A stretch of DNA of 64,000 nucleotides from a virus (taxonomy: Duplodnaviria > Heunggongvirae > Uroviricota > Caudoviricetes): the IMG/VR virus record IMGVR_UViG_3300014043_000277; one strand, written 5' to 3'. This document shows, piece after piece, positions 6,454 through 64,000 of the stretch. The notes below the pieces were generated by a model. It was not told the DNA's origin, did not search any database, and worked only from the letters and a program-made list of their open reading frames with translations. The first letter of the stretch is position 1, and each line of letters starts with the position of its first letter. Made by a program: the position numbers and the translations under genes.

Positions 6454-6592
6454 ATTTGACTTCCTCCCACGCCTTCAGGCGTGGGATTCCTACGCCGTTC
6501 GCCTTAATGGAGGCTTGCGGTTCGGTGGGTTCCCGCATCATTGGCGTCAGCGTTGCGACTGGCTTGCGCCAGCCTCCGTCTTACATCACCTC
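6454..6592 (-). ncRNA. GC-rich structured element of about 135 nt, copy A; candidate cis-regulatory leader or small RNA
   Basis: GC-rich against an AT-rich background. Nested hairpins include cccacgcc-ttca-ggcgtggg, ctggc-ttgc-gccag and a ggaggc...gcctcc enclosure. A second copy lies at 63863-64000. Confidence 0.4.
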
Positions 6593-15599: not shown

Positions 15600-15927
15600 T
15601 CCACTGGACTCATGTTATCCATGAGAACAGGCAACCGGACGGCACGGAATGCTAAAATATTATGAAAACCGATGAAACACGAGTGATTGATTATTAACCA
15701 AAATTGATAAAATGCAGGCATGTCAACAAAACAGGAATTATGCTGATATTCACAATACTTTCACAATTATGAGCAGTTTAAACATGAATGCAAATGGTAA
15801 TAACATTGATTACATATGAAAACCACTTAGACAAAAATAGAATGATGAATAGAGCGGTTTTTGCTTTGCGACATATGCATGAGAGAATGAACATTGGTTA
15901 AAATAAAAATATAGCCATCATGATTTC

Positions 15928-16262
15928 AAAAAATAATGGTGCCGCCGTCAGTGGTAGCTCATGAACAATGCTTGGTTTTCAAAAAATAATGGTGCCGCCG
16001 TCAGTGGTAGCTCATGAACAATGCTTGGTTTTCAAAAAATGAATCGCCGCCGTCACCGGTCGCTCATGTCAACACTGCTCCCATCCCTGCGGGACACGAG
16101 AACAGGCGCACTCCACGCAGGAGCACAGTGCCACGAGGGCAAGACCGCATGTGAGCACGGTGAGGAAGAGACGATGCGATACAGCTGCGGACGGCAGGCG
16201 TGCTGGTTACTAAAACTCACAGGGGTACTCCCTGCTTGCTTTCAGGTGAACCAGGTCAAAAT
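15928..16262. repeat. Left arm of an imperfect inverted repeat of about 330 bp, partner at 20990-21262
   Basis: The outer iteron block and the inner block aaactcacaggggtactccctgcttgctttcaggtgaaccaggtcaaaata reappear as reverse complement at 20998-21048 and 21203-21262. The GC-rich core of about 140 bp is diverged between the two arms. Confidence 0.7.
15933..16075. repeat. Tandem direct repeat of about 54 bp, iteron-like; two full copies and one degenerate copy
   Basis: ttcaaaaaataatggtgccgccgtcagtggtagctcatgaacaatgcttggttt occurs twice in tandem (15933-15986, 15987-16040). A diverged third copy (gaatcgccgccgtcaccggtcgctcatg) follows. Confidence 0.7.
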
Positions 16263-17219
16263 AAGTCTTCAATAGACACGATTATCAGTATATTAATAGT
16301 TGATATAATGTATGAAATATGTGAATACATTACACTTGGCCGCTTTCAGGTGAACCGCACTTCGGACAAAATCCTGAAAACAATGTTTGCAGGAACGCGA
16401 TAATGTGATATTGTTGATGACAACAGGAACGGAACAAGTATCATCCGATTCCGACATAACAGAAAACAAACCATCCAGTTTACACATGATTAAGTTCATG
16501 TCCACACGGAAAGGAAAACACAGCATGACAGCTGCATGCACATTGACAACAAAGAACAACATTGATGACATTGACATCACGGAAAACCTGATTCTGAAAT
16601 CGGATTCATACAAGTATTCCCACTGGTTGCAGTATCCCACGGGATTGACTTATATGTTCGATTATCTTGAATCACGCGGAACAAACCATAACATTGATAA
16701 GCATGTCATGGATGAAACCCGCTTTTTCGGATTACAATACTATGTTAAAAAGTATCTTTCTCGACCAATCACAATGGGAATGATTAATCAGGCAGAGGAA
16801 ATCATCGCCGGGCAGGGATTGCCTTTCAGCAGGGAAGGATGGGAATTGATTCTGAACGAACACAATGGTTTCATTCCAATCCGCATCCGCGCCGCCAAGG
16901 AAGGCGCATTGATCCCGGCGCATAATGTGTTGATGACCATTGAATCCACTGATGACAGGATTCCATGGATTGTCGGATGGGCGGAAACACTGCTCATGAA
17001 AGTATGGTATCCGACTACTGTTGCGACATTATCATATTCAATTCATGAACTCATTAAGAAATATTTGGATTTTACCAGATTGTTGTGGGAATGCCCCTGC
17101 TTTTTAAGTATGAGGGTTAAAAAGCATAACCTGCTTGCAATTAATAGCATAATTAATATAATCAACCAGCATGATTGATAATGTGATATCATTGAGAACA
17201 ACACCGGGAAGGAGGAAAC

Positions 17220-18590
17220 GTGATGACACCAGAGGAACGCGAGCTGAAGAACAAGCACATTAGCGAGAGCATTAAAGCTACTCGTGAGAAGCGCAAGAAT
17301 CAGCGTGCGATGGTGTTCATCATGAAAATCAACAAGGGTAAACTCACTCATCAGCAGCGGAAACTGCTTAACCGCGTGTTCCTTGAGGCGAAATGGCTCA
17401 GGAATGATATCATTAGCAGTCAGGATGTACTCAAGTATAACCCAGCAATCAGGAAGGTTAAGGTAATCATCCCGGAACCCGCGAAGCAGCGTGACCCGAA
17501 ACTACATGATAGGACTGAGCACCTGATTGCACTCGGTAGTCAAGTCAAACAGGGCGTTCTCAAGCAAGTGAAGGATGACATACGCGGTTTGCATGCTGTT
17601 AGGGTGAAGGGCGGTAAGGTTGGCTCACTGAAATTCACCAGTGAGGTGAACTCAATTAACCTACCGCAGTATGGTATCACGTGGCGGGTTAAGGGAAACT
17701 CTAATAAGATTAAAATACAGGGAATCCCCGGTTACTTGTATGTTAAGAACCTGCAACATGAACTCTTTAACACGCAGTATGATTATAATCTCGCGAACGC
17801 GAAATTATTGCGTCGTTCGGATGGTTATTATATTGCCATAACGGCTTACCTGAGTAATGATGATTATAAGAATAGGAGAATTAATCATGATAGGAAGGTA
17901 ATGAGGAAGGAACCAGCATCGGATACTTACATTGGTATTGATGCTGGTTTGCAGCATCAGTTCATTATGAGCACGAATGGTGAGCCTGTTTACAAGGACG
18001 CATACCGGAGTGAATCGAAGCGGTCTAAACGCGCGAGAGCGCACCAGAAAATGAAGAAGCACGGCTCGAAACGGTATGATAAGTGTAAGCGGGTTATTCG
18101 GCAGGATGGTGAACGCAGGCAAGCATGGAAGAGAATAACAGCGCATCAGTTCGTCCTATGGTTATTAAGCATGTTTGAAACTATTTGTATTCAGGATGAG
18201 CATTTTCAATCATGGTTCAGAGTGAATGGTTGTAAGATGAGCGATGGTATCCTCGGTCGGGTTTACGCTGAATTACGTGGGCTTGCTGGTGAGTCATCGC
18301 CGCGTGTGCTCATGTGTGATGAGTGGCAACCCACGACACAGTATTGCCCGTTCTGCGGGCATTGTACTAAGCATAAACTATCAGAGCGCGTGTTCCATTG
18401 CGCGTATTGCGGTTTTGAAATGGATCGGGATACTCATGCGGCATTGAACATGATTATCCTCGCGCTGGAACCATTGCCTGCTTACTGGTGGCGATTATCT
18501 GAGTTTAAACCACTGGACTCAGTTAAAAGGATTAATAGTGGTTTAACCGTGCGTGAGAGCGCGGTTATTAATCACGCTGGTCTGCATTAA
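17220..18590 (+). CDS. tnpB: TnpB (OrfB), the IS200/IS605-family RNA-guided endonuclease
   Basis: 456 aa. The C-terminal zinc finger CPFCGHCTKHKLSERVFHCAYCGFEMDRDTHAALNM sits next to a RuvC-III region, and the basic HTH-like N-terminus is typical of TnpB. A strong AGGAGG lies 7 nt upstream of GTG-ATG. Confidence 0.8.
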   Translation: MMTPEERELKNKHISESIKATREKRKNQRAMVFIMKINKGKLTHQQRKLLNRVFLEAKWLRNDIISSQDVLKYNPAIRKVKVIIPEPAKQRDPKLHDRTEHLIALGSQVKQGVLKQVKDDIRGLHAVRVKGGKVGSLKFTSEVNSINLPQYGITWRVKGNSNKIKIQGIPGYLYVKNLQHELFNTQYDYNLANAKLLRRSDGYYIAITAYLSNDDYKNRRINHDRKVMRKEPASDTYIGIDAGLQHQFIMSTNGEPVYKDAYRSESKRSKRARAHQKMKKHGSKRYDKCKRVIRQDGERRQAWKRITAHQFVLWLLSMFETICIQDEHFQSWFRVNGCKMSDGILGRVYAELRGLAGESSPRVLMCDEWQPTTQYCPFCGHCTKHKLSERVFHCAYCGFEMDRDTHAALNMIILALEPLPAYWWRLSEFKPLDSVKRINSGLTVRESAVINHAGLH

Positions 18591-18760
18591 ATTGCAGGGA
18601 ATGTGAGCCGATTGGTTACACTGTTTGATACTCTCGTGTCTGATGGTGATTACTGTCCAATCGCGTTTCCCGGCCAGTGAACCCACAGTGTTAACACTTG
18701 TTAATTCTGAGCATTATGCTGAAGCCCCGTGCTTCAGCGCTGGGGTATCTCACAGCGGAT
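18591..18760 (+). ncRNA. Candidate TnpB omega-RNA (right-end element RNA) scaffold
   Basis: Placed by analogy: omega RNAs derive from the 3' end of tnpB and the right end of the element. This region holds stable hairpins including gctgaagc-cccgt-gcttcagc. The extent is not determined. Confidence 0.3.
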
Positions 18761-19448
18761 GATCGAGGTAAGCTACCGTTCATGTTGCAGGATTTCGGTT
18801 ATCGTGGCGTATCCAGTGATGAATCAGCCGGTATTGGCGGAATGGCTCATTTGACTAATTTCAAGGGAACGGATACCGTCGCCGCCGCCGCTTACGCGCG
18901 TAAATACTATCATGCGGACATTGCCGGTGTCAGCATTCCCGCATCCGAGCATTCCACCATAACATCCTGGGGTGCCGGGCGTGAGAGATGGACAGGAAGC
19001 ATTTGAAAACATGATTAACCGGTTCGGGGATTATGCGAATTATGCTTGCGTGTCCGATTCATGGAATTATGATCGCGCATTGCGCACATGGATTTCATTG
19101 AAACCATTGATTGAACGGCATGATGGCATTCTTGTCGTGCGTCCTGATTCCGGTGATAATGTCAGGAATGTGCTTGTAGCATTACACGCATATTGGATGA
19201 GGGATTCGGAAGCACTGTGAACAGCAAGGGCTACAAGGTTCTGAATCATGTCGCCGTCATTCAAGGTGATGGTTGTGATTATGATAGCATTGAACGCATT
19301 CTGCAAGCGACAATGGATGCTGGTTATTCCGTGCAGAATCTTGCATTCGGAATGGGTGGCGCGCTGTTGCAGGGTGGTGATCATTCATCCGTGAACCGCG
19401 ACACACATAAATCTTTCAAGGACGTCATCTAAGAGACAACATCAAGCC

Positions 19449-19488
19449 AAGAAAAAGACCGAGTGATTCATCACTCGGTCTTTTTCTT
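19449..19488. terminator. Bidirectional intrinsic terminator after the nadV remnant
   Basis: aagaaaaagaccgagtga-ttca-tcactcggtctttttctt forms a perfect 18-bp stem flanked by an A-run and a T-run. Confidence 0.7.
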
Positions 19489-19516
19489 ATCCTCAGACAT
19501 ATTACGATGTCGATAC

Positions 19517-19846
19517 CTAAGTATCAACCATACCACTATCGTAACACTTACACCAATAACAAACGGAATACCTGTGATTAAAAACCAAGCATAGTAAACA
19601 AACACCAAGCCACCAGTAAAACTCAACGCAGTTTGTTGCCCAAAAAAAACTCGTATAAAGACTATCTGTTACGGCTAAAAATCCCGTGATAAGAAAGGGA
19701 ATCATTAAATAAATTCCTAATATTACAAAACTTATATTGCGCCGTACCTTTATATTTTTCATATCAGCAACAATATCGCTAAGCGACATCGGCTCTTCGG
19801 TCAACGTAAACTGCATACCAGCGACTCGCAAAACAGGAGAACGCAC
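19517..19846 (-). CDS. Possible small hydrophobic protein
   Basis: Contains FVILGIYLMIPFLITGFLAV and WWLGVCLLCLV. It sits in a rearranged region and partly overlaps a duplicated gene fragment, so it may be spurious. Confidence 0.2.
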   Translation of the reverse strand: MRSPVLRVAGMQFTLTEEPMSLSDIVADMKNIKVRRNISFVILGIYLMIPFLITGFLAVTDSLYTSFFWATNCVEFYWWLGVCLLCLVFNHRYSVCYWCKCYDSGMVDT

Positions 19847-20083
19847 ACATTACATTGGCTGTAAGCGGCACATCAAATGATGAACGGTGACAATAAAGCC
19901 ATCTGCTTGCATACATCGCAGGCGTGTATGATGGCAGTGTCCTATGCGATTATGATTTCAAAGACATTCAACTGAGCGCATGATAACATTTGATGAATTG
20001 AAATAAAATGAGCGGAACGCAATCACTATTTGCATTCCGCTCATTCGCTTCGGTCAGTCCGCCCTCCCCGATATCAATAATTA

Positions 20084-20902
20084 TCACATTGAAACAGGAA
20101 TGGAAATAATGCCATCCTTGCCTATGCTGAAATATGGTTTCATTCTGTTGATTGTTTTCTTGAATGGTTTCACGTATGCGTCGTGGACATCACGAATGTG
20201 ATTCTGAAAAGCCGTCAGCTCCTTTTCATTATTACGGATTTTCAAATCATGTTCGCTTGTTTCCATTTTAGTGGTTTCCTTGCTGTATTCAACAGGCCAT
20301 CCATCCGCGAGCATGACGGAACCTTTCGCGAGCGCGTTCACTCCGACAAGTCCTATCCTGCCATCAGTGTTCCGATATGCTGATTCTCCTATTTTCATGT
20401 TATTGAATGAGAAATCAGCCTCATCGCTCATGAGCGCAGCCGCAATGTCAAATGACGCGGAGAACGCACACATTACATTGGCTGTAAGCGGCACATCAAA
20501 TGATGAACGGTGACAATAAAGCCATCTGCTTGCATACATCGCAGGCGTGTATGATGCCCGTCCGAGGGAATATGCGATTATCACGTCATCCTCAGTGAAC
20601 ATGCCATCATATGAATCCAGATCCATGAATTTTTCCAATTCCTGCATTTGAATCATGGCACGGAACGCGCCTTCCATTATGTAGTCCTTTTCACTGTTAT
20701 ATAAGGAATTATAAGCATCCTTGCTGATATTTGCGGTTTTAAATGCGGCATTCACGGCGAGTTCAGCCGCCATCCTCATTGATCCGGCTTCCATGCTGTC
20801 AACTTTCTTGCTTAATTCCAATGCCTTCTCATGTACTGTTGTCATGAATTCAATGATATCATACCGAATCAACCATGTCAACATGAAATCAGCATTATTC
20901 AT
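20084..20902 (-). CDS. Hypothetical protein, 272 aa
   Basis: Long ORF with a hairpin at 20010-20043 downstream. An internal 102-bp segment is duplicated at 19836-19937. Confidence 0.4.
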   Translation of the reverse strand: MNNADFMLTWLIRYDIIEFMTTVHEKALELSKKVDSMEAGSMRMAAELAVNAAFKTANISKDAYNSLYNSEKDYIMEGAFRAMIQMQELEKFMDLDSYDGMFTEDDVIIAYSLGRASYTPAMYASRWLYCHRSSFDVPLTANVMCAFSASFDIAAALMSDEADFSFNNMKIGESAYRNTDGRIGLVGVNALAKGSVMLADGWPVEYSKETTKMETSEHDLKIRNNEKELTAFQNHIRDVHDAYVKPFKKTINRMKPYFSIGKDGIISIPVSM

Positions 20903-20989
20903 GTCATGTCCAATTTAATTCTAATTAATACAGCGTAATTCATTCACGCTTTTAGACATGCTGATACTGTTTCGCCAACCGTTTGAAAA

Positions 20990-21262
20990 CGTATTTTAAC
21001 CTGGTTCACCTGAAAGCAAGCAGGGAGTACCCCTGTGAGTTTCAGCAACCGTTAGATTAAGCGCACGGCATCTGATACTGCAATCCTATGCGCCTGCGCT
21101 GGCGCGTTGCCTGTCTGTCCATGCCGTGTGCGCGTGTACAGTGTTTGCGGTATTGCGTGCATGAACGGCCATGAGAGCAGCAAGGGGTGACGGTGGCGAT
21201 TATTTTTTTTGAAAACCAAGCATTGTTCATGAGCGACCAGTGACGGCGGCAATATTATTTTA
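20990..21262. repeat. Right arm of the imperfect inverted repeat, partner at 15928-16262
   Basis: The reverse complement of 21203-21262 matches the iteron unit at about 90% identity. The reverse complement of 20998-21048 matches 16209-16262 almost exactly. Confidence 0.7.
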
Positions 21263-21400: not shown

Positions 21401-22897
21401 TTATTTGCTTTTATGCCATCCAATACGGTTCAACGCCTGTTCATTGTTCTTCGTTAGCCATTGTTCCGGTGATGCGGGTGATTGTATTCCGCAGGATTTA
21501 CACATCAGCATACGTGTTCCATCAACTGTTTTGATTTTATAACTGGTTAATGGTTTACGGCATTGGATGCATTTTCCTGATTGCAGAATTGCGAGGCGTT
21601 CAGCCGTATTCGCTTGTTCAGGTTCCATTCCGCGTTCATGAATATGCAGTATGATTGTATACAATGCGTTCAAATCAATGCTGCTGTCCAATGCGGTTAT
21701 TTTATCATTGAAAGTGCATTTGTTCATCAGCGCCTTGATTATTGTTCCGTTCTTCGCGCGATGCTTGCGTTTTTCAGCGATTATCATGTTAATCTGATTC
21801 AATGCGTTATCAAGCCATTTGATTGCAATGGCGTTCTGTTGTTGCTGTTTCGCGCTTGCTTTATCCGGATTCACCAATATTTTCTTTATTGCGGATTCTT
21901 TAAGATTGTTTCCTTTCCTGTAATCATTGATTCGTCCGATTGCATTCCGAATGACATCATGGGTGACGCGTTCAATTGGAATTGATTGCAGGTTATGGAT
22001 TTCATTCATGGCGAAACGGCTGCAATCCGGCGTCATTGGTTTATAACCGGCGTAATCCATGAATGCATGGATGTTATCATGTATCCTTGCGGCGCGGGTC
22101 GGTTCGAATCGTCTGTTGAGCCATTCGCCTAGTTCAAGATGATCCTTGTCGGCATTGCATGCATGACAGCATATGATGACATTGCCGAATATGGTTTCTC
22201 CGATTCCGAGTTCTACTGGATTTGCAATTGGAATGATATGATCGCCTGTTCTGCGTCTATCGCCACTGTCAGTCATTTTATGGCCGCAATAAGCGCATCT
22301 TCCATTGAACCATAGGACGGTTCTGATGAATTGCTCATATGTGAAACCGTTGTTCAACGCCGTCATTATGCATCTTGCGATTCCACTACGGATTGATGCT
22401 TTGTTCATGCTTAATGGCTTCCCTGCTGCGATGATAGTGAAAATGTCATCAACATGCATTTCGCCGTTGAATTCAATGTAATCCTTGTATTGCGGGATTG
22501 TCCGGATGTTCCGTTTGCACCAGTCTGTTCCTTTTGGATTGTTTTTCATGATGAATGCAGCCAATGCGTTCACTGTGACGCCATATTGCAGCCATTCGCG
22601 TTTATCATGCCGTTTCATTGGGTCCGTGCCATCAGCATTGTTCACGGCGGTGATTTTTGTCTCAGGCATGTCGATATGGTTGCTTAGCGCGCCGAGCATG
22701 AGGTTCAACGCGCTTTTATCGCCTTCCAGCGTTTTCGGCATGTTCTGCGTGATGGCTAATGCGATTGCGGTGTCATCATGCGGGTCGATTCCTGCCTTAT
22801 CGCATAGTTCAAGCCATTCTGTTTGATCATATGTCATTCCGAGGCATAATTGCATGAGGCCGGGGATTATTTCACGAGCGGATTGTTTGTCAGTCAT
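21401..22897 (-). CDS. HNH endonuclease-domain protein, 498 aa, actinobacterial DUF222/13E12-like architecture
   Basis: The HNH core is FNGRCAYCGHKMTDSGDRRRTGDHIIPIANPVELGIGETIFGNVIICCHACNADKDH. It is a paralogue of 26464..27903. Confidence 0.6.
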   Translation of the reverse strand: MTDKQSAREIIPGLMQLCLGMTYDQTEWLELCDKAGIDPHDDTAIALAITQNMPKTLEGDKSALNLMLGALSNHIDMPETKITAVNNADGTDPMKRHDKREWLQYGVTVNALAAFIMKNNPKGTDWCKRNIRTIPQYKDYIEFNGEMHVDDIFTIIAAGKPLSMNKASIRSGIARCIMTALNNGFTYEQFIRTVLWFNGRCAYCGHKMTDSGDRRRTGDHIIPIANPVELGIGETIFGNVIICCHACNADKDHLELGEWLNRRFEPTRAARIHDNIHAFMDYAGYKPMTPDCSRFAMNEIHNLQSIPIERVTHDVIRNAIGRINDYRKGNNLKESAIKKILVNPDKASAKQQQQNAIAIKWLDNALNQINMIIAEKRKHRAKNGTIIKALMNKCTFNDKITALDSSIDLNALYTIILHIHERGMEPEQANTAERLAILQSGKCIQCRKPLTSYKIKTVDGTRMLMCKSCGIQSPASPEQWLTKNNEQALNRIGWHKSK

Positions 22898-23823: not shown

Positions 23824-24120
23824 TCATTCATTATGATTATCATCAATGAGCGATAGAACAAGATTCGCGAGTGCGTCCGGTAGCGAGTATGGGTCAATTC
23901 CCGGTTCCATGACTATTGGTATGAGCGCGGTGATGACTGCTGTCCGTGTAATCATGTCATCGGTGATTCCGGCTTCCTTGCAGCGTTGTTTCCAATCCTG
24001 TCGGCATGCTTCCAATTGCCTGTTCATGTCCGTATCCGCATGGATTGCCATTAATGCTGGCATGAGTGCTTTCCGGATGTCATTGACCCATTCGTTCATA
24101 TCATTCATATCATTGTTCAT
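23824..24120 (-). CDS. Hypothetical small acidic protein
   Basis: 98-aa ORF whose start overlaps the stop of the upstream GT-C gene. Confidence 0.35.
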   Translation of the reverse strand: MNNDMNDMNEWVNDIRKALMPALMAIHADTDMNRQLEACRQDWKQRCKEAGITDDMITRTAVITALIPIVMEPGIDPYSLPDALANLVLSLIDDNHNE

Positions 24121-25724
24121 GCGTCAATAATATCCTTCCATTCTGCAGGTTCGCGTTTCTTTCTGACGGCATTGCATGCATCCGTTAACACTTCCAATCC
24201 TATTCCGGCATATGGGATGAGCAATAGGAAATACGTGTAAGCATACTCAGGTTGCGTTTCCCAGAATACATGGAATATGAATCCGCCGAGGATGCATAAT
24301 GCGGGTAACGCGGCCATGATATCATGTTTTCGTTTCGCAATCGGCAATCCGATTAACGCCATTATGCTGATGATTATGCATGCGGCATCAGCGATTGTCC
24401 GCGTTGAAACCATGAATGCACTTGATGTAACTATTTTCTCACCTGCCGTGAGTTTCATTTTACCTTGCAGCTCTTTATTGTTGGCAACATTCAGGAATAT
24501 TGAATTACCGACGCGAACCTGATATGAGAATGTCGGTTCCGCCCATGTTTGAGCGATTTTAACAGAGAAGAAATTAATCGCGTATAACGGGTTTGTTGTA
24601 AGTTTGCTGATTTGACGGGATAGGGTTTCATTCGCGTTCCGATTAATGGTTTTAGCATCAGTCCATGCGTAACCGGCCTTCTGATAATAGAATCCTTTAC
24701 CATGATCACTGCCGTCATTCAATCCCATCGCAATGAAATTCCTCATTGGCTGTGCTTCTGATTGTTCAAATTTAATGCCTGAAATCATTTCCATGCTGTT
24801 CACGGCGATAGTCTTACCTGTCATCATGCATGGTATTATGAGAATCCCTGCGATTATCAGAATTATTGTCTTTTTCAATTGAACATGATGAATACATGCA
24901 TACAGGATGAAACTGATGGTTAATGCTATGCCGATTATCATGTTGTTCGGTTTGATGAAACCGGCTATGATTGCAAGAATGAGAATGCTCAGGATTCTCA
25001 TTATGAATGGTTTGAATGTCTTGTTATCATTAATGCTGATTGCAAGCAGTATCATTCCTGTGATGAGAGGCAGGGACATGATGTTTCCATAAACCTGAAT
25101 CATGCTTAACGGCAAGGGAATGAACATCATGAGAATCAATGCTGTCCATTTCGCGGTTTTCTCACCGTTCAACCGTTTCGCTATGAAAATCAGATTAAGC
25201 ATGGTGATTATCATGAGGATCATGTTCGCATATGACATCATGAGATACACGCCATTCAGGTTCATGTTCTGGAACAGCATGATGAATGGAAGCATTATGA
25301 TGAGGACACCTGATTGATATGGATAACGCTGCAGGTAAATATAATTCTTATCATGATAATCATTTCTGATGATGTCAAAACCGATTTTCATCATGTTTTC
25401 ACCGTCTCCCCTATCACGGAAACCGGATAATGTCAACCATGTGAATGCAATGATTACAGTGAATGCAATGCTTATCATGATAACGTGTTTCAGTTTCATC
25501 CTGCTAATGAACCCGGTCATTCGGTTCAATGCATACATGATTGCAATCGCAATGATGATTCCTATTATTGCCGCTGTCATATCAAAATATGGATTTCTGA
25601 CAGTGAATGAACCCGTGTAGCACATTGTCAGGAACACGTTCAGGAATGCGATGATTATAAGGATGATGAATGACAGCGCATATGAGAATCCGAACAGCAC
25701 TTTCCCTATTTTCTCAACATTCAT
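24117..25724 (-). CDS. GT-C-fold-like polytopic membrane glycosyltransferase, paralogue 1
   Basis: 535 aa with more than 10 predicted transmembrane segments. It shares the RYPYQSGV motif and the C-terminal WETQPEYAYTYFLLLIPYAG with 28066..29691 and 29716..31308. Confidence 0.5.
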   Translation of the reverse strand: MNVEKIGKVLFGFSYALSFIILIIIAFLNVFLTMCYTGSFTVRNPYFDMTAAIIGIIIAIAIMYALNRMTGFISRMKLKHVIMISIAFTVIIAFTWLTLSGFRDRGDGENMMKIGFDIIRNDYHDKNYIYLQRYPYQSGVLIIMLPFIMLFQNMNLNGVYLMMSYANMILMIITMLNLIFIAKRLNGEKTAKWTALILMMFIPLPLSMIQVYGNIMSLPLITGMILLAISINDNKTFKPFIMRILSILILAIIAGFIKPNNMIIGIALTISFILYACIHHVQLKKTIILIIAGILIIPCMMTGKTIAVNSMEMISGIKFEQSEAQPMRNFIAMGLNDGSDHGKGFYYQKAGYAWTDAKTINRNANETLSRQISKLTTNPLYAINFFSVKIAQTWAEPTFSYQVRVGNSIFLNVANNKELQGKMKLTAGEKIVTSSAFMVSTRTIADAACIIISIMALIGLPIAKRKHDIMAALPALCILGGFIFHVFWETQPEYAYTYFLLLIPYAGIGLEVLTDACNAVRKKREPAEWKDIIDA

Positions 25725-28065: not shown

Positions 28066-29691
28066 TTAATCATGCTGAAAACTTTTTATTAATGATTTTT
28101 TATCGTTGTTTTTGCCAGCAATGTTATCAATGCTGAAATCGTTTGTTATCATTGCGGCGTATGGTATTAGCAGTATGAAATACGTGTAAGCATATTCAGG
28201 TTTCGTCTCCCAGATTAAATGGAACAGGAACCCTCCGAGAATGCAAACACCGAGAAGTATTCCATAAGCATCATGACGATTCCGCATTATTCCGATGATT
28301 GCGAATGATGATATGAGAATACATAAACCATCCAACCATGATCGAGTTATTATCATGAAAGCATTGGAATCAATTATTTTCTGCCCGATTGTCTCATGCA
28401 ACACTGGTTCTTTCGCGTTTTCAACGATTCCATCCTTATCATCATTATCAATGTTATTCTGTTTTACATATTCACTATAATAATATGATTCAGCTGGCCG
28501 TGTCACGTATGAGAATGTAGGTTCCGCCCATGTTTCCATTGTTTTCACACGGAAGAAATCAATTAAATATGACGGTTGTTTGAATTTCACTGATTGTTTA
28601 CGCCATGTGTTATCAGCGTTCCTGTTGGATTCATCCAATGTGTATCTTGTTGACCCGATATTCCATTTAAAGAAACCATAACCGCCAGCCGCATCATCAT
28701 TCAAACCCATGATCATGAAATTCTTTGCCGGTGCTTTCATGTTCTCATTATAATCAACACCGGTGATTCCCTGTAATAATGCGGGAGCTAGTGCAGCACC
28801 GATCATCATAAATGGAATTATGATGATTCCGGTGATTGTATGTTTCCAGTTTATTCTAATCATTGAACAAACTATGAGAATGATTGTTATGGCAATGCCG
28901 ATTATCATGTTGTTCGGTTTGATGAAACCCAGTATGACAGCAACAAGCATGATGATTATCGCATTCCGCCAATTGAATGATTTCATTAGTCTGATTGCGG
29001 TTAATAATGCTAATAGGATTAACGGAACGCTTAACGTATTACCATATACTTGAATCGCGCTCATTGGAATCACTATGAATCCCATTGATAACAGGATAGC
29101 CGCGCATCCGGCATTCTCGTCTTTTAATTCTTTTGTTATCAATCCTATTAACGGTATGATTGTCGCTGTCCATAATGTGTTCAATGTCATCATGATGCCA
29201 TATGCGAACCATATGTCTCTTCCAATGGCGTGCGATAATAATGCGAATGGATACATGATTAAACCGACACCTGATTGATACTGGTATCGTTCCATGTATT
29301 TCAGATATGTCGTTCTCCAATCATCATTATTATCTATAATGCTCCAATCGAACCGCAGTATTGATGTTGAATCATCCTCCGGATGGTATCCGCTCATAAT
29401 CAACCATATCATTGACATGATGAATGAGAACATGAAACCAATTATAATAAGCCGTTTGAATCCAATTCGTTCAATGATGGCATTAATTTTTTGAATCATT
29501 GACAGCATTATGATTCCAATGCTGGCTCCCATGATTGCAATAATGTAATTATTGGAAGTGAATGCAAATGAATATGGCGTTGAATAACATACTGTAAATA
29601 TGATGTTCAATAATGCGATGATGGCAATGGCGATGATTGAGAACCATGCTCCGATATTGTTCATGAATTGTCCGATTCTCTTAATCATCAT
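28066..29691 (-). CDS. GT-C-fold-like polytopic membrane glycosyltransferase, paralogue 2
   Basis: 541 aa and multi-pass. Carries the YQYQSGVG motif and the C-terminal WETKPEYAYTYFILLIPYAA. Confidence 0.5.
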   Translation of the reverse strand: MMIKRIGQFMNNIGAWFSIIAIAIIALLNIIFTVCYSTPYSFAFTSNNYIIAIMGASIGIIMLSMIQKINAIIERIGFKRLIIIGFMFSFIMSMIWLIMSGYHPEDDSTSILRFDWSIIDNNDDWRTTYLKYMERYQYQSGVGLIMYPFALLSHAIGRDIWFAYGIMMTLNTLWTATIIPLIGLITKELKDENAGCAAILLSMGFIVIPMSAIQVYGNTLSVPLILLALLTAIRLMKSFNWRNAIIIMLVAVILGFIKPNNMIIGIAITIILIVCSMIRINWKHTITGIIIIPFMMIGAALAPALLQGITGVDYNENMKAPAKNFMIMGLNDDAAGGYGFFKWNIGSTRYTLDESNRNADNTWRKQSVKFKQPSYLIDFFRVKTMETWAEPTFSYVTRPAESYYYSEYVKQNNIDNDDKDGIVENAKEPVLHETIGQKIIDSNAFMIITRSWLDGLCILISSFAIIGIMRNRHDAYGILLGVCILGGFLFHLIWETKPEYAYTYFILLIPYAAMITNDFSIDNIAGKNNDKKSLIKSFQHD

Positions 29692-29715: not shown

Positions 29716-31308
29716 TCATATTTTTTTCAATTGGATTCCTGATGATAGGATACCGGCATATGGAAACATTAATAGGAAATACGTGTAAGCATACTCCGGT
29801 TGCGTTTCCCATAAATAATGGAACAGAAACCCGCCGATGAGAATCATGGCTGGAAGAACAATGGCTTCATTGCATTCATGCATTCTGATGAATTGGAACA
29901 GCATGATGCAAACGAGAACCATGACAAGCATTTGCAATCCATCCCAGTATAGCATGAACATGGTTTTGTTATCATTCATGAATGCAGTGAATACTTTATC
30001 CTGTCTGGTTCCTGATGCCTGTATGAGCGAACGTCCGAAAACCGCGAATGACGGTTCGCTCCATGAATACAATGTTTTCCTTACAAGCATTTGAATCCAC
30101 CAGTTATTCTCATTCAAACGATTCACATGTTCATTGAATAATTGTCTGGCGTTTTCCGATGCTTTATCCGGTGTCCAATCATCATTCCATGTTCCACCGA
30201 GATAATCCTCCTGATAGAAACCGGGCGTCGCAGTCAATGGATTGTAATCCGTTCCCATCGCAATCCAACTCATTGCAGGTTGACGTGAGTTTTTCAAATC
30301 GGCGTCAGTGAATGATTGCATGATGTTAACAGGAATGATTGAACCAAGAATGGCGGCGATGATGATAATCGGCATGAGAATGAGATTCCGTTTCCTATGT
30401 TTCAACAATCCGAGAATGAGAATGATTATCATTGCAATCACTGTAATCATCATGTTCGTTTTGAACCATAACATTCCGAATACCGAAATGAACAGGATTA
30501 TGGCTCTTCTGATGAATGCATGTGTGTTCATGTTCTCATCAGTGAGTTTTATTATCATCAGTATTCCGAGGAACAGGAATGGCAGGCATAGGATGTTCCC
30601 GTAGATTTTATAGCCGCTCATTGCGAACGGTGAATACAATGTAAGCATTATCATTGTCATGTTAAATGCGGAATTGCCACTGTGGCGCGTTTTAACGGCT
30701 ATTTCACGGGCGATCATGCTGATTAGTATCCCTGATATGGGAATGATGATTATCGCGTTTATAAGACGCATTACAAGCATGTTCATGGATGCTCCTGTGA
30801 ACATCATCATGAGCATCATGTATAATAGTACACCTGATTGATATGGATAATGGGTGATATACGCATAAGCGTCAGGCAGCGTGTCATCATATAACGGCGT
30901 GTCCGCTGTCAGGAAGCCATGCTCATGGATTTTCGCGGCGATTTCCATGAGTTCATATGAATCCTCCGGTTCCGTTTCCGCCGCGAACACCGTCCATGCG
31001 ATTCCTGTTAACATTATGATGGCAGTGCATACAATGCCTGTCATCATTGGTTTCAAACGGATTATGTCATCATGCAATGTCATTATCAAACCGAATATTG
31101 CGATTGCGATTATGATGCTGGCGATTATAATCACTGGATTCATGCCATTCATCCAATCGGCATTATCGAATGAACCATACCATGCGATGCTGTTCAATAT
31201 GATGATGACAGTGATGAACATTGTTATCATGAATGCGATGGATAACACCGACTTGCATAGGAATGAATGAATCCTGTCCATGAATCCATGTGAGTTCATT
31301 GATGACAT
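29716..31308 (-). CDS. GT-C-fold-like polytopic membrane glycosyltransferase, paralogue 3
   Basis: 530 aa and multi-pass. Carries the YPYQSGVL motif and the C-terminal WETQPEYAYTYFLLMFPYAG. Confidence 0.5.
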   Translation of the reverse strand: MSSMNSHGFMDRIHSFLCKSVLSIAFMITMFITVIIILNSIAWYGSFDNADWMNGMNPVIIIASIIIAIAIFGLIMTLHDDIIRLKPMMTGIVCTAIIMLTGIAWTVFAAETEPEDSYELMEIAAKIHEHGFLTADTPLYDDTLPDAYAYITHYPYQSGVLLYMMLMMMFTGASMNMLVMRLINAIIIIPISGILISMIAREIAVKTRHSGNSAFNMTMIMLTLYSPFAMSGYKIYGNILCLPFLFLGILMIIKLTDENMNTHAFIRRAIILFISVFGMLWFKTNMMITVIAMIIILILGLLKHRKRNLILMPIIIIAAILGSIIPVNIMQSFTDADLKNSRQPAMSWIAMGTDYNPLTATPGFYQEDYLGGTWNDDWTPDKASENARQLFNEHVNRLNENNWWIQMLVRKTLYSWSEPSFAVFGRSLIQASGTRQDKVFTAFMNDNKTMFMLYWDGLQMLVMVLVCIMLFQFIRMHECNEAIVLPAMILIGGFLFHYLWETQPEYAYTYFLLMFPYAGILSSGIQLKKI

Positions 31309-63862: not shown

Positions 63863-64000
63863 TTTGACTTCCTCCCACGCCTGAAGGCGTGGGATTCCTA
63901 CGCCGGTCGCCTTAATGGAGGCTTGCGGTTCGGTGGGTTCCCGCATCATTGGCGTTAACGTTGCGACTGGCTTGCGCCAGCCTCCGCCTTACATCACCTC
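63863..64000 (-). ncRNA. GC-rich structured element, copy B, truncated by the window end; directly abuts the start of 63269..63859
   Basis: About 95% identical to copy A. The hairpin loop is flipped (ttca to tgaa), and the substitutions sit in loops or as pairs that preserve the structure. Its minus-strand 3' end, gggaggaag, supplies the Shine-Dalgarno for the downstream ATG. Confidence 0.4.

What the first reader, a model, noticed from the sequence alone, without database searches (positions are those of the whole stretch)
17070..18760. An orphan TnpB insertion has pseudogenised nadV and supplies a candidate omega-RNA for a defined target
The NAMPT reading frame stops at about 17070 and resumes at about 18760. 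The 1.7-kb gap holds only tnpB, with no tnpA. Subterminal hairpins lie in both flanks. The downstream NAMPT portion also carries two frameshifts, so the gene is decaying. The omega-RNA scaffold should span the 3' end of tnpB and the right-end element at 18591-18760. If so, its guide would be the adjacent nadV sequence at about 18760 onward.
Basis: partly seen in the sequence, partly recalled or inferred. Interest (0 to 1): 0.55.

Follow-up and report, generated by a model that had tools for sequence, protein, structure and literature searches.

The report
TnpB insertion sequence splitting phage nadV
A 1.7-kb transposase-less mobile element carrying an RNA-guided nuclease gene (tnpB) has split a large phage's NAD-salvage gene, and related phages still carry the exact uninterrupted site its guide RNA should recognise; it is an ordinary kind of element in an unusually well-documented natural setting.

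Summary
I could fix it to the base by comparing independent copies and uninterrupted alleles from other metagenomes.

- **Element:** window 17076-18753 (1678 bp) is a non-autonomous IS200/IS605-family element. It sits immediately 3' of TTAC (17072-17075) in nadV, with no target duplication.
- **Contents:** it carries only tnpB (17223-18590). The RuvC D-E-D triad and zinc finger are intact. There is no tnpA here or in 279 kb of related phage DNA.
- **Empty site:** joining 17075 to 18754 reproduces the majority intact allele exactly (TTTAC|AGCGGATGATCGAGGT, L088-L091).
- **Guide RNA:** the predicted guide therefore starts at 18754, not 18760. The right-end region is conserved and strongly folded. 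Covariation support is weak, and no Rfam family matches.
- **The +2 lesion:** it lies at a second TTAC that the same element family occupies in three other samples, so it is probably an imprecise-loss footprint.
- **Family size:** at least 14 insertion sites and a 528-bp miniature derivative exist.
- **Near-twin contig:** L095 differs from the window at 35 positions over 20.8 kb, all inside the element.

Verdict: a new member of a known kind, of moderate interest.

The parts
16525..17075 (+). nadV (NAMPT) 5' fragment. ATG at 16525; an upstream in-frame ATG at 16417 is used in some gene calls.
   Evidence: Pfam NAMPT_N E=1.4e-23. One mismatch in 798 nt against intact allele L006. Alignment to intact NAMPTs.
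17072..17075 (+). TTAC target/transposon-adjacent motif (TAM) abutting the left end. It is TTTAC here and ATTAC at seven other sites.
   Evidence: Invariant in all copies at independent sites. Retained in the empty site of L088-L091.
17076..18753 (+). Non-autonomous IS200/IS605-family element (1678 bp) carrying tnpB only.
   Evidence: Homology among copies starts at 17076 and ends at 18753. The excised join equals the intact allele.
17076..17222 (+). Left end. It holds an imperfect hairpin at about 17093-17117 (GCCCCTGCT...AGTATGAGGGT), a promoter-like site at 17135-17162 and a GGAGG ribosome-binding site at 17212-17216.
   Evidence: Consensus fold of left-end copies, DNA fold, promoter scan 10/12 match.
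17223..18590 (+). tnpB, 455 aa from ATG 17223 (GTG at 17220 also in frame). RuvC residues D241/E327/D404 and CxxC...CxxC are intact (residues numbered from GTG 17220). The TAA stop at 18588 ends it 29 codons before the stop in the twin contig.
   Evidence: Pfam TNB domain. 139 homologs. Catalytic columns. Family profile against ISDra2 TnpB structures E=2.8e-29. Third-codon variation of 130 against 53 and 38 at first and second positions.
18384..18753 (+). Candidate omega-RNA scaffold region (3' end of tnpB plus right end). 18384 is an outer limit set by the miniature derivative; the true 5' end is unknown.
   Evidence: Fold z=-5.17 for 18500-18753. 99.2% of cells paired in 12 copies, with 2 compensatory pairs. 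Retained in the 528-bp miniature copies. The C-terminal protein tail is not conserved while the DNA is.
18718..18753 (+). Right-end subterminal hairpin(s), GCTGAAGC/GCTTCAGC overlapping GCCCCGTGC/GCGCTGGGGT, and the terminal motif CTCAC (18749-18753).
   Evidence: DNA fold. Invariant in 12 copies. Right flanks diverge immediately after CTCAC at 14 or more sites.
18754..18773 (+). Predicted guide segment, AGCGGATGATCGAGGTAAGC, which is the first nadV bases after the element.
   Evidence: Position by analogy with IS605-family TnpB (PMC10055086). Identical for 21 nt to the TTTAC-flanked intact allele L088-L091. Unique in the window.
18754..19412 (+). nadV 3' fragment with an extra G at 18987 (+1) and an extra AC at 19186-19187 (+2).
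   Evidence: Pfam NAPRTase. Column-by-column comparison with L006, L092, L088 and L093.
19182..19187 (+). Second TTAC site in nadV (19182-19185) followed by the extra AC. This is the probable footprint of a lost copy of the same element.
   Evidence: In L096-L098 the element's left end starts right after this TTAC. The window shares the upstream synonymous haplotype GTGCTTGTAG with them.
19413..19927 (.). Segment of 515 bp that replaces the last ~100 codons of nadV. It includes a strong hairpin terminator (19448-19489) and a copy (19836-19938) of part of the neighbouring 272-aa gene.
   Evidence: blastn against intact L006. Found only in insertion-bearing haplotypes: window, L095 and L092. Terminator scan. 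Repeat D7.

Best explanation
Window 17076-18753 is a non-autonomous IS200/IS605-family insertion sequence with tnpB only (IS1341-like organisation). It lies in the nadV gene of a large phage-like genome. SHOWN: it sits immediately 3' of TTAC with no target duplication. It has related imperfect hairpins near both ends. It encodes a TnpB with an intact RuvC triad and zinc finger. It is one of many copies in this phage lineage. The uninterrupted site exists in related phages. INFERRED from the family: the 3' end of tnpB plus the right end are transcribed into an omega-RNA whose guide is the adjoining AGCGGATGATCGAGGT. TnpB loaded with it would cut any nadV copy that reads TTAC followed by that sequence, whether produced by excision or carried by a co-infecting phage. 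Recombinational repair from the interrupted copy would then restore or spread the element. Movement to new TTAC sites needs a Y1 TnpA supplied in trans, presumably by the host. nadV itself is dead: it is split, frameshifted twice and 3'-truncated.
For: Boundaries and TTAC come from 8 independent left junctions and 14 or more right junctions. The exact empty site TTTAC|AGCGGATGATCGAGGT is in L088-L091, and its protein occurs on 47+ contigs. The TnpB family profile matches ISDra2 TnpB structures 8BF8/8EXA/8H1J at E=2.8e-29. D241, E327 and D404 and four cysteines are conserved. Codon-position pattern 53/38/130 indicates purifying selection. Eight of 80 distant relatives in cellular genomes have an adjacent Y1 transposase. 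None is found in the window or in 279 kb of related phage loci. The right end is less variable (27/163 columns) than third codon positions (130/456). Its fold has z=-5.17. Substitutions in stems are almost all pair-preserving. A 528-bp miniature copy keeps the left end plus the last 370 nt. The mechanism follows Meers et al. (PMC10055086).
Against: Neither RNA expression nor nuclease activity is shown. No curated RNA family matches. Covariation is statistically weak because the copies are over 86% identical. A model built from them finds nothing in distant relatives. This copy has a TAA stop 29 codons before the stop in its twin L095, which could reduce function. However, the tail varies freely across the family, with 440-, 455-, 485- and 493-aa forms. 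No cognate TnpA has been identified.
Confidence: 0.8

Rival explanations
1. The copy is an inert relic. The insertion is real, but this tnpB is inactivated by a premature stop and lacks a transposase, so it has no present activity. It is simply decaying together with nadV.
For: TAA at 18588-18590 where the twin contig and close homologs read TCA. No TnpA in 64 kb plus 279 kb of related DNA. The surrounding gene is clearly decaying.
Against: Catalytic and zinc-binding residues are intact. The lost tail is not conserved as protein in the family, and another copy ends at the same stop. Across copies the gene shows purifying selection. Copies in otherwise identical genomes have exchanged sequence recently.
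Confidence: 0.13
2. The phage uses the TnpB and guide as a weapon or drive against co-infecting relatives that carry intact nadV, rather than only for restoring the element after excision. This is the reading developed under the novel case.
For: Natural intact alleles carry a perfect TTAC plus a 21-nt match. The element alone differs between two otherwise identical 20.8-kb genomes. An intact allele on the insertion-bearing haplotype has lost TTAC at both used sites. The concept is discussed as 'non-restorative homing' in PMC13565253.
Against: All evidence is circumstantial. Substitutions are not significantly enriched in the TAM-plus-target window between alleles (P=0.14 and 0.045). Ordinary recombination between copies explains the mosaic pattern equally well.
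Confidence: 0.3
3. The element is an IStron-like self-splicing insertion that leaves nadV functional at the RNA level.
For: It lies in a coding region, in the same orientation as the gene.
Against: No group I intron or other ribozyme match in 16000-20000 at E<=1. The left end is only 147 nt. nadV has two frameshifts and a 3' truncation regardless.
Confidence: 0.02

Closest known systems
ISDra2 TnpB and its right-end (omega) RNA, Deinococcus radiodurans
   Same: Homologous over nearly the whole protein (profile E=2.8e-29 against 8BF8/8EXA/8H1J). It has the same RuvC triad and zinc finger. The predicted guide RNA sits at the 3' end of tnpB and the right end. The motif 5' of the left end is expected to double as the nuclease's TAM.
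   Different: Relatives in cellular genomes are at most about 37% identical, and this clade fails Pfam's OrfB_IS605 model. The motif is TTAC rather than TTGAT (the ISDra2 motif is from my own knowledge). ISDra2 carries tnpA and this element does not. The RNA shows no detectable sequence similarity to anything curated.
IS608 of Helicobacter pylori (IS200/IS605 family)
   Same: Insertion 3' of TTAC without target duplication, subterminal imperfect hairpins at both ends, and a different tetranucleotide ending the right end (here TCAC). The IS608 details are from my own knowledge of Ton-Hoang, Barabas and colleagues.
   Different: IS608 encodes TnpA and is autonomous. Here no TnpA is found.
Non-autonomous tnpB-only ISGst elements and PATE-like miniatures of Geobacillus stearothermophilus (Meers et al., PMC10055086)
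   Same: Elements carrying tnpB alone plus miniature derivatives, mobilised in trans. The empty site ('donor joint') equals the TAM plus the right flank and matches the guide. The right-end motif differs from the TAM by one or two bases.
   Different: These copies reside in a large phage-like genome rather than a bacterial chromosome. The trans-acting TnpA has not been identified.
Free-standing homing endonucleases of T-even phages (SegF, SegB and others)
   Same: The predicted outcome is similar: cutting the allele of a co-infecting phage and copying the endonuclease gene into it (reviewed in PMC13565253).
   Different: Those enzymes recognise DNA through protein contacts. Here recognition would be RNA-guided and is so far only predicted.

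Membership tests
IS200/IS605 family insertion sequence | Inserts 3' of a fixed 4-5 nt motif, with no target-site duplication | tested here: met
   TTAC precedes 8 independent left ends. The empty site L088-L091 equals the left flank plus the right flank exactly.
IS200/IS605 family insertion sequence | Subterminal imperfect palindromes at both ends instead of terminal inverted repeats | tested here: met
   Left end GCCCCTGCT...GAGGGT (about 17093-17117) and right end GCCCCGTGC...GCTGGGGT (18724-18746). No terminal inverted repeat was reported.
IS200/IS605 family insertion sequence | Y1 (HUH) transposase TnpA encoded by the element | tested here: not met
   An HMM built from 8 TnpAs adjacent to distant relatives gives no hit in the window or in 279 kb of related phage loci. 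The element is therefore non-autonomous, as most tnpB-bearing members are (PMC10055086).
TnpB (OMEGA RNA-guided nuclease) | RuvC-like D-E-D catalytic triad and C-terminal zinc finger | tested here: met
   D241, E327, D404 and C376/C379/C394/C397 are aligned in 30 homologs.
TnpB (OMEGA RNA-guided nuclease) | Homology to experimentally characterised TnpB | tested here: met
   Profile against the PDB: ISDra2 TnpB E=2.8e-29 over positions 42-379. Pfam PF07282. PHROG 506 'transposase'.
TnpB (OMEGA RNA-guided nuclease) | Structured guide RNA encoded at the 3' end of tnpB and the right end, with the guide read from the flank | tested here: inconclusive
   Stable fold (z=-5.17). High conservation. 99.2% paired cells, but shuffles reach this value in 54 of 500. 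No Rfam hit. No expression data.
TnpB (OMEGA RNA-guided nuclease) | RNA-guided cleavage of a TAM-flanked target | not testable with these tools
   Needs a biochemical or plasmid-interference assay.
IStron (IS605-family element fused to a group I intron) | Group I intron ribozyme at the 5' end | tested here: not met
   No intron family at E<=1 in 16000-20000. The left end is 147 nt.
Nuclease-dead TnpB derivatives (TldR-like regulators) | Loss of RuvC catalytic residues | tested here: not met
   The triad is intact.

The most novel reading that the evidence does not exclude
This tnpA-less element behaves as an RNA-guided homing drive among co-infecting large phages. Its TnpB-guide complex would cut intact nadV alleles that read TTAC-AGCGGATGATCGAGGT and copy the element in. 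The population would then carry the traces: element-only sequence replacement between otherwise identical genomes; an intact allele on the insertion haplotype whose TTAC has become the right-end motif CTCAC at site 1 and TTCC at site 2, and so would be immune; and an AC footprint at site 2 in the window.
Probability: 0.3. Interest if true: 0.7.

Novelty: new member of a known kind. Interest (0 to 1): 0.42.

Why it matters
Mechanistically this is a textbook tnpB-only IS605-family element, so it adds no new principle.

Its value is as a natural test case. The same gene is available in filled, empty, motif-altered and footprint states across many metagenomes. The predicted TAM and guide are defined to the base, and a miniature derivative and more than a dozen other insertion sites are known.

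That makes one idea directly testable: TnpB elements may spread between co-infecting phages by RNA-guided homing without their transposase. So far this idea is discussed mainly in theory (PMC13565253).

It also shows that an auxiliary NAD-salvage gene of these phages is repeatedly disrupted by the same element family, so the gene is evidently dispensable in some settings.

Tried and rejected
- **Rfam:** scans of 16000-20000 and 15600-16450 at E<=1 gave only chance hits or nothing.
- **Phage records:** megablast of the locus against GenBank phage records found no match.
- **IMG/VR:** searches with the protein, the empty-site pattern and the right-end 23-mer all found nothing.
- **Exact protein look-up:** the window's TnpB is not on record.
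- **Covariance model:** a model of the right end searched in 80 distant cell-genome loci found no significant hit, so wider covariation could not be assessed.
- **TAM-plus-target enrichment:** substitutions are not convincingly enriched in the 21-nt window between intact alleles (P=0.14 and 0.045).
- **TTAC turnover:** TTAC is the least or second-least retained tetranucleotide between nadV alleles. The neighbouring control region has only 3 sites, and 2 of them also vary, so this is left as inconclusive.
- **Second copy or tnpA in the window:** neither was found.
- **tRNA genes in the window:** none were found.
- **IStron and nuclease-dead readings:** both were considered and rejected.

Full report
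**What is at the coordinates**

Three sets of ORFs occupy the region.
- ORF 16387-17178 (+) carries the NAMPT N-terminal domain.
- ORF 17220-18590 (+) carries the TnpB/Cas12f TNB domain.
- ORFs 18698-19006, 18972-19220 and 19193-19432 carry the rest of NAMPT in frames 2, 0 and 2.

The surrounding genes encode a RecG-like helicase, a primase/replicase, a Dda-like helicase, a ClpB-like ATPase, TelA, an Ig-domain structural protein and an HNH protein. This fits a large phage or phage-like element. Related contigs reach 90-400 kb. No GenBank phage record or IMG/VR contig is close.

**Exact boundaries**

Close TnpB homologs (83-96% identical) lie at different places in related contigs. Six copies share sequence from just after an invariant TTAC to ...GGGGTATCTCAC.
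- In the window this puts the element at 17076-18753, 1678 bp.
- TTAC lies at 17072-17075.
- The right flank begins at 18754.

A scan of JGI metagenomes with the last 23 nt of the element found 12 more copies. Their right flanks all diverge immediately after CTCAC, giving at least 14 distinct sites. Eight independent left junctions read ATTAC (seven) or TTTAC (one).

**The empty site exists**

A search with the conceptually repaired NAMPT found intact relatives of up to 97% identity. The commonest, P0242, is on 47+ contigs. Its locus L088 is a 188-kb contig syntenic with the window. There the site reads ...AAATATTTGGATTTTAC|AGCGGATGATCGAGGTAAGCT..., which is window 17075 joined to 18754. The insertion is therefore precise, has no target duplication, and removing it restores the reading frame (D-F-T|A-D-D).

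**The element**

- *Contents.* It holds only tnpB.
- *TnpB identity.* A profile of 30 homologs matches the solved ISDra2 TnpB structures at E=2.8e-29 over almost the full length.
- *Catalytic residues.* D241, E327 and D404 and the four zinc-finger cysteines are present.
- *Selection.* Variable columns per codon position are 53, 38 and 130 across copies, which indicates purifying selection.
- *Relatives.* The nearest relatives in cellular genomes are at most 37% identical (Aquificota, Synergistaceae, Asgard archaea). Eight of those 80 have a Y1 HUH transposase next to tnpB, which ties the family to IS200/IS605.
- *No TnpA here.* An HMM of those TnpAs finds nothing in the window or in 279 kb of related phage loci.
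- *Ends.* Both ends carry related imperfect hairpins (GCCCC...GGGGT type) at about 17093-17117 and 18724-18746.
- *Expression signals.* The left end has a promoter-like site and a GGAGG site upstream of ATG 17223. These are consensus matches only.
- *Miniature copy.* A 528-bp derivative in L108/L109 fuses 17076-17241 to 18384-18753. This implies mobilisation in trans and marks the last 370 nt as the part kept in cis.

**The candidate guide RNA**

- The right end (18591-18753) varies at 27 of 163 columns, against 130 of 456 third codon positions.
- The stretch 18500-18753 folds at -94 kcal/mol with z=-5.17.
- In 12 copies, 99.2% of cells in the consensus structure pair, two pairs show compensatory changes and most other changes are G-U compatible. 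The shuffle control is weak, with 54 of 500 shuffles reaching the observed value.
- The protein tail beyond about residue 430 differs in frame and length among copies (440, 455, 485 and 493 aa) although the DNA is conserved. This fits constraint on an RNA rather than on the protein.
- No Rfam family matches. A model built from these copies finds nothing in distant relatives.

In characterised IS605-family elements the guide is read from the flank next to the right end, and the TAM is the motif next to the left end (PMC10055086). By analogy the guide here is AGCGGATGATCGAGGT..., from 18754, and the target is TTAC followed by that sequence. This is exactly the L088-type allele, which matches for 21 nt. 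The occupied site is protected because the right end finishes in TCAC rather than TTAC. In the Geobacillus system single-base TAM changes abolish cleavage.

**State of nadV**

| Lesion | Window position | Evidence |
|---|---|---|
| Element insertion | 17076-18753 | |
| +1 frameshift, extra G | 18987 | |
| +2 frameshift, extra AC | 19186-19187 | |
| Last ~100 codons replaced by an unrelated 515-bp segment | 19413-19927 | |

Locus L092 comes from another sample. It has the same right junction and the same 3' replacement but no frameshifts. The frameshifts are therefore the most recent lesions.

**A second target site**

In L096-L098 (three samples) the same element family is inserted after GAATTAC, at the position matching window 19182-19185. 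The window reads TTAC-AC-GCAT there, and intact alleles read TTAC-GCAT. The window also shares the upstream synonymous haplotype GTGCTTGTAG with L096. The extra AC equals the last two bases of the element. I read the +2 frameshift as the footprint of an imprecise loss. This is an inference, and the mechanism is unknown.

**Signs of recent exchange**

- *Twin contig.* L095 (65.7 kb) aligns to window 6417-27178 with 35 mismatches, all inside the element, in two patches (17257-17723 and 18437-18629). At every one of them L095 carries the base found in L001, another copy of the element from the same sample; L002, a third copy from that sample, agrees at 33 of the 35. Copies therefore exchange sequence, or are replaced, much faster than the genome diverges.
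- *Altered intact allele.* L006 lies on the insertion-bearing haplotype, with 1 mismatch in 798 nt on the left and 0 in 295 nt on the right (against L092). It reads CTCAC instead of TTTAC at site 1 and TTCC instead of TTAC at site 2. I cannot separate three explanations:
  1. The element arrived by recombination with a very short co-conversion tract, under 131 nt on the left and 21 nt on the right.
  2. The element was lost imprecisely, leaving the right-end motif behind.
  3. Selection favoured alleles that lost the TAM.
- *Statistics.* Tests for TAM-centred diversification are suggestive but not robust.

**Comparison and verdict**

This is a non-autonomous IS200/IS605-family element with an apparently functional TnpB. 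It uses the same target motif as IS608 (from my own knowledge) and has the tnpB-only organisation described for Geobacillus elements. It is a new member of a known kind. Activity of the nuclease and RNA remains inferred. The wider reading, RNA-guided homing between co-infecting phages, is discussed in theory in PMC13565253. It is compatible with the data but not demonstrated.

Noticed in passing
window 15930-16272 and 20983-21261; L007 7681-7725 and 11292-11336: Inverted repeats of about 340 bp (two conserved blocks, one tandemly doubled at 15930-16039) bracket the nadV plus 272-aa-gene module. A more distant phage (L007) has inverted repeats around the same module, in the opposite orientation relative to the replicase/RecG genes. 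Short Logan contigs end exactly in these repeats. This may be an invertible or recombination-prone cassette. There is no Rfam match.
   Followed up: partly
L095 versus window 6417-27178: A twin contig from sample ERZ28661605 is identical over about 19 kb of flanks but differs at 35 positions inside the element. Every difference matches L001, another copy of the element in the same sample (L002 matches at 33 of 35). This indicates patchy gene conversion or replacement confined to the element.
   Followed up: yes
L006 (site 1 at about 840-844; site 2 at about 1272-1275): An intact nadV allele on the insertion-bearing haplotype reads CTCAC (the element's terminal motif) instead of TTTAC at site 1 and TTCC instead of TTAC at site 2. 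A third allele (L093/L094) reads TTGAC|TGCGGATAATCGAGAT at site 1.
   Followed up: partly
L096-L098 about 5983 onward; window 19182-19187: The same element family occupies a second TTAC in nadV in three other samples. The window has an extra AC at exactly that point.
   Followed up: yes
L108 7552-8079 (-) and L109 3230-3757 (-): A 528-bp miniature derivative of the element (left end plus last 370 nt, no intact tnpB) is inserted after GGATTAC.
   Followed up: partly
L088 11002-13983; window 21401-22897: In L088 a different TnpB element (423 aa, with the HTH_OrfB_IS605 and OrfB_IS605 domains) appears to split the homolog of the window's 498-aa HNH-like gene into 292-aa and 183-aa pieces. L001 also carries a second, unrelated tnpB (488 aa) next to this family's copy.
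   Followed up: no
window 19413-19927: The segment replacing the nadV 3' end holds small membrane-protein-like ORFs on the minus strand (19471-19626, 19517-19846), a strong bidirectional terminator hairpin (19448-19489) and a 103-nt duplicate (19836-19938) of part of the 272-aa gene (20459-20561).
   Followed up: partly
nadV alleles L088, L006, L093: None of the 12 columns that hold TTAC in any allele is conserved in all three. TTAC ranks first or second lowest in retention among about 160 tetranucleotides. The numbers are small and the control region is uninformative.
   Followed up: partly
window 24117-25724, 28066-29691, 29716-31308: Three neighbouring ~535-aa genes on the minus strand share repeated segments (repeat families D1, D4, D5, D16, D20). 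They look like tandem paralogs. The L088 homolog is annotated PF27792 CHIM_prot.
   Followed up: no
window 6455-6592 and 63863-64000: A direct repeat of 138 nt (96% identical) runs into the end of the window.
   Followed up: no
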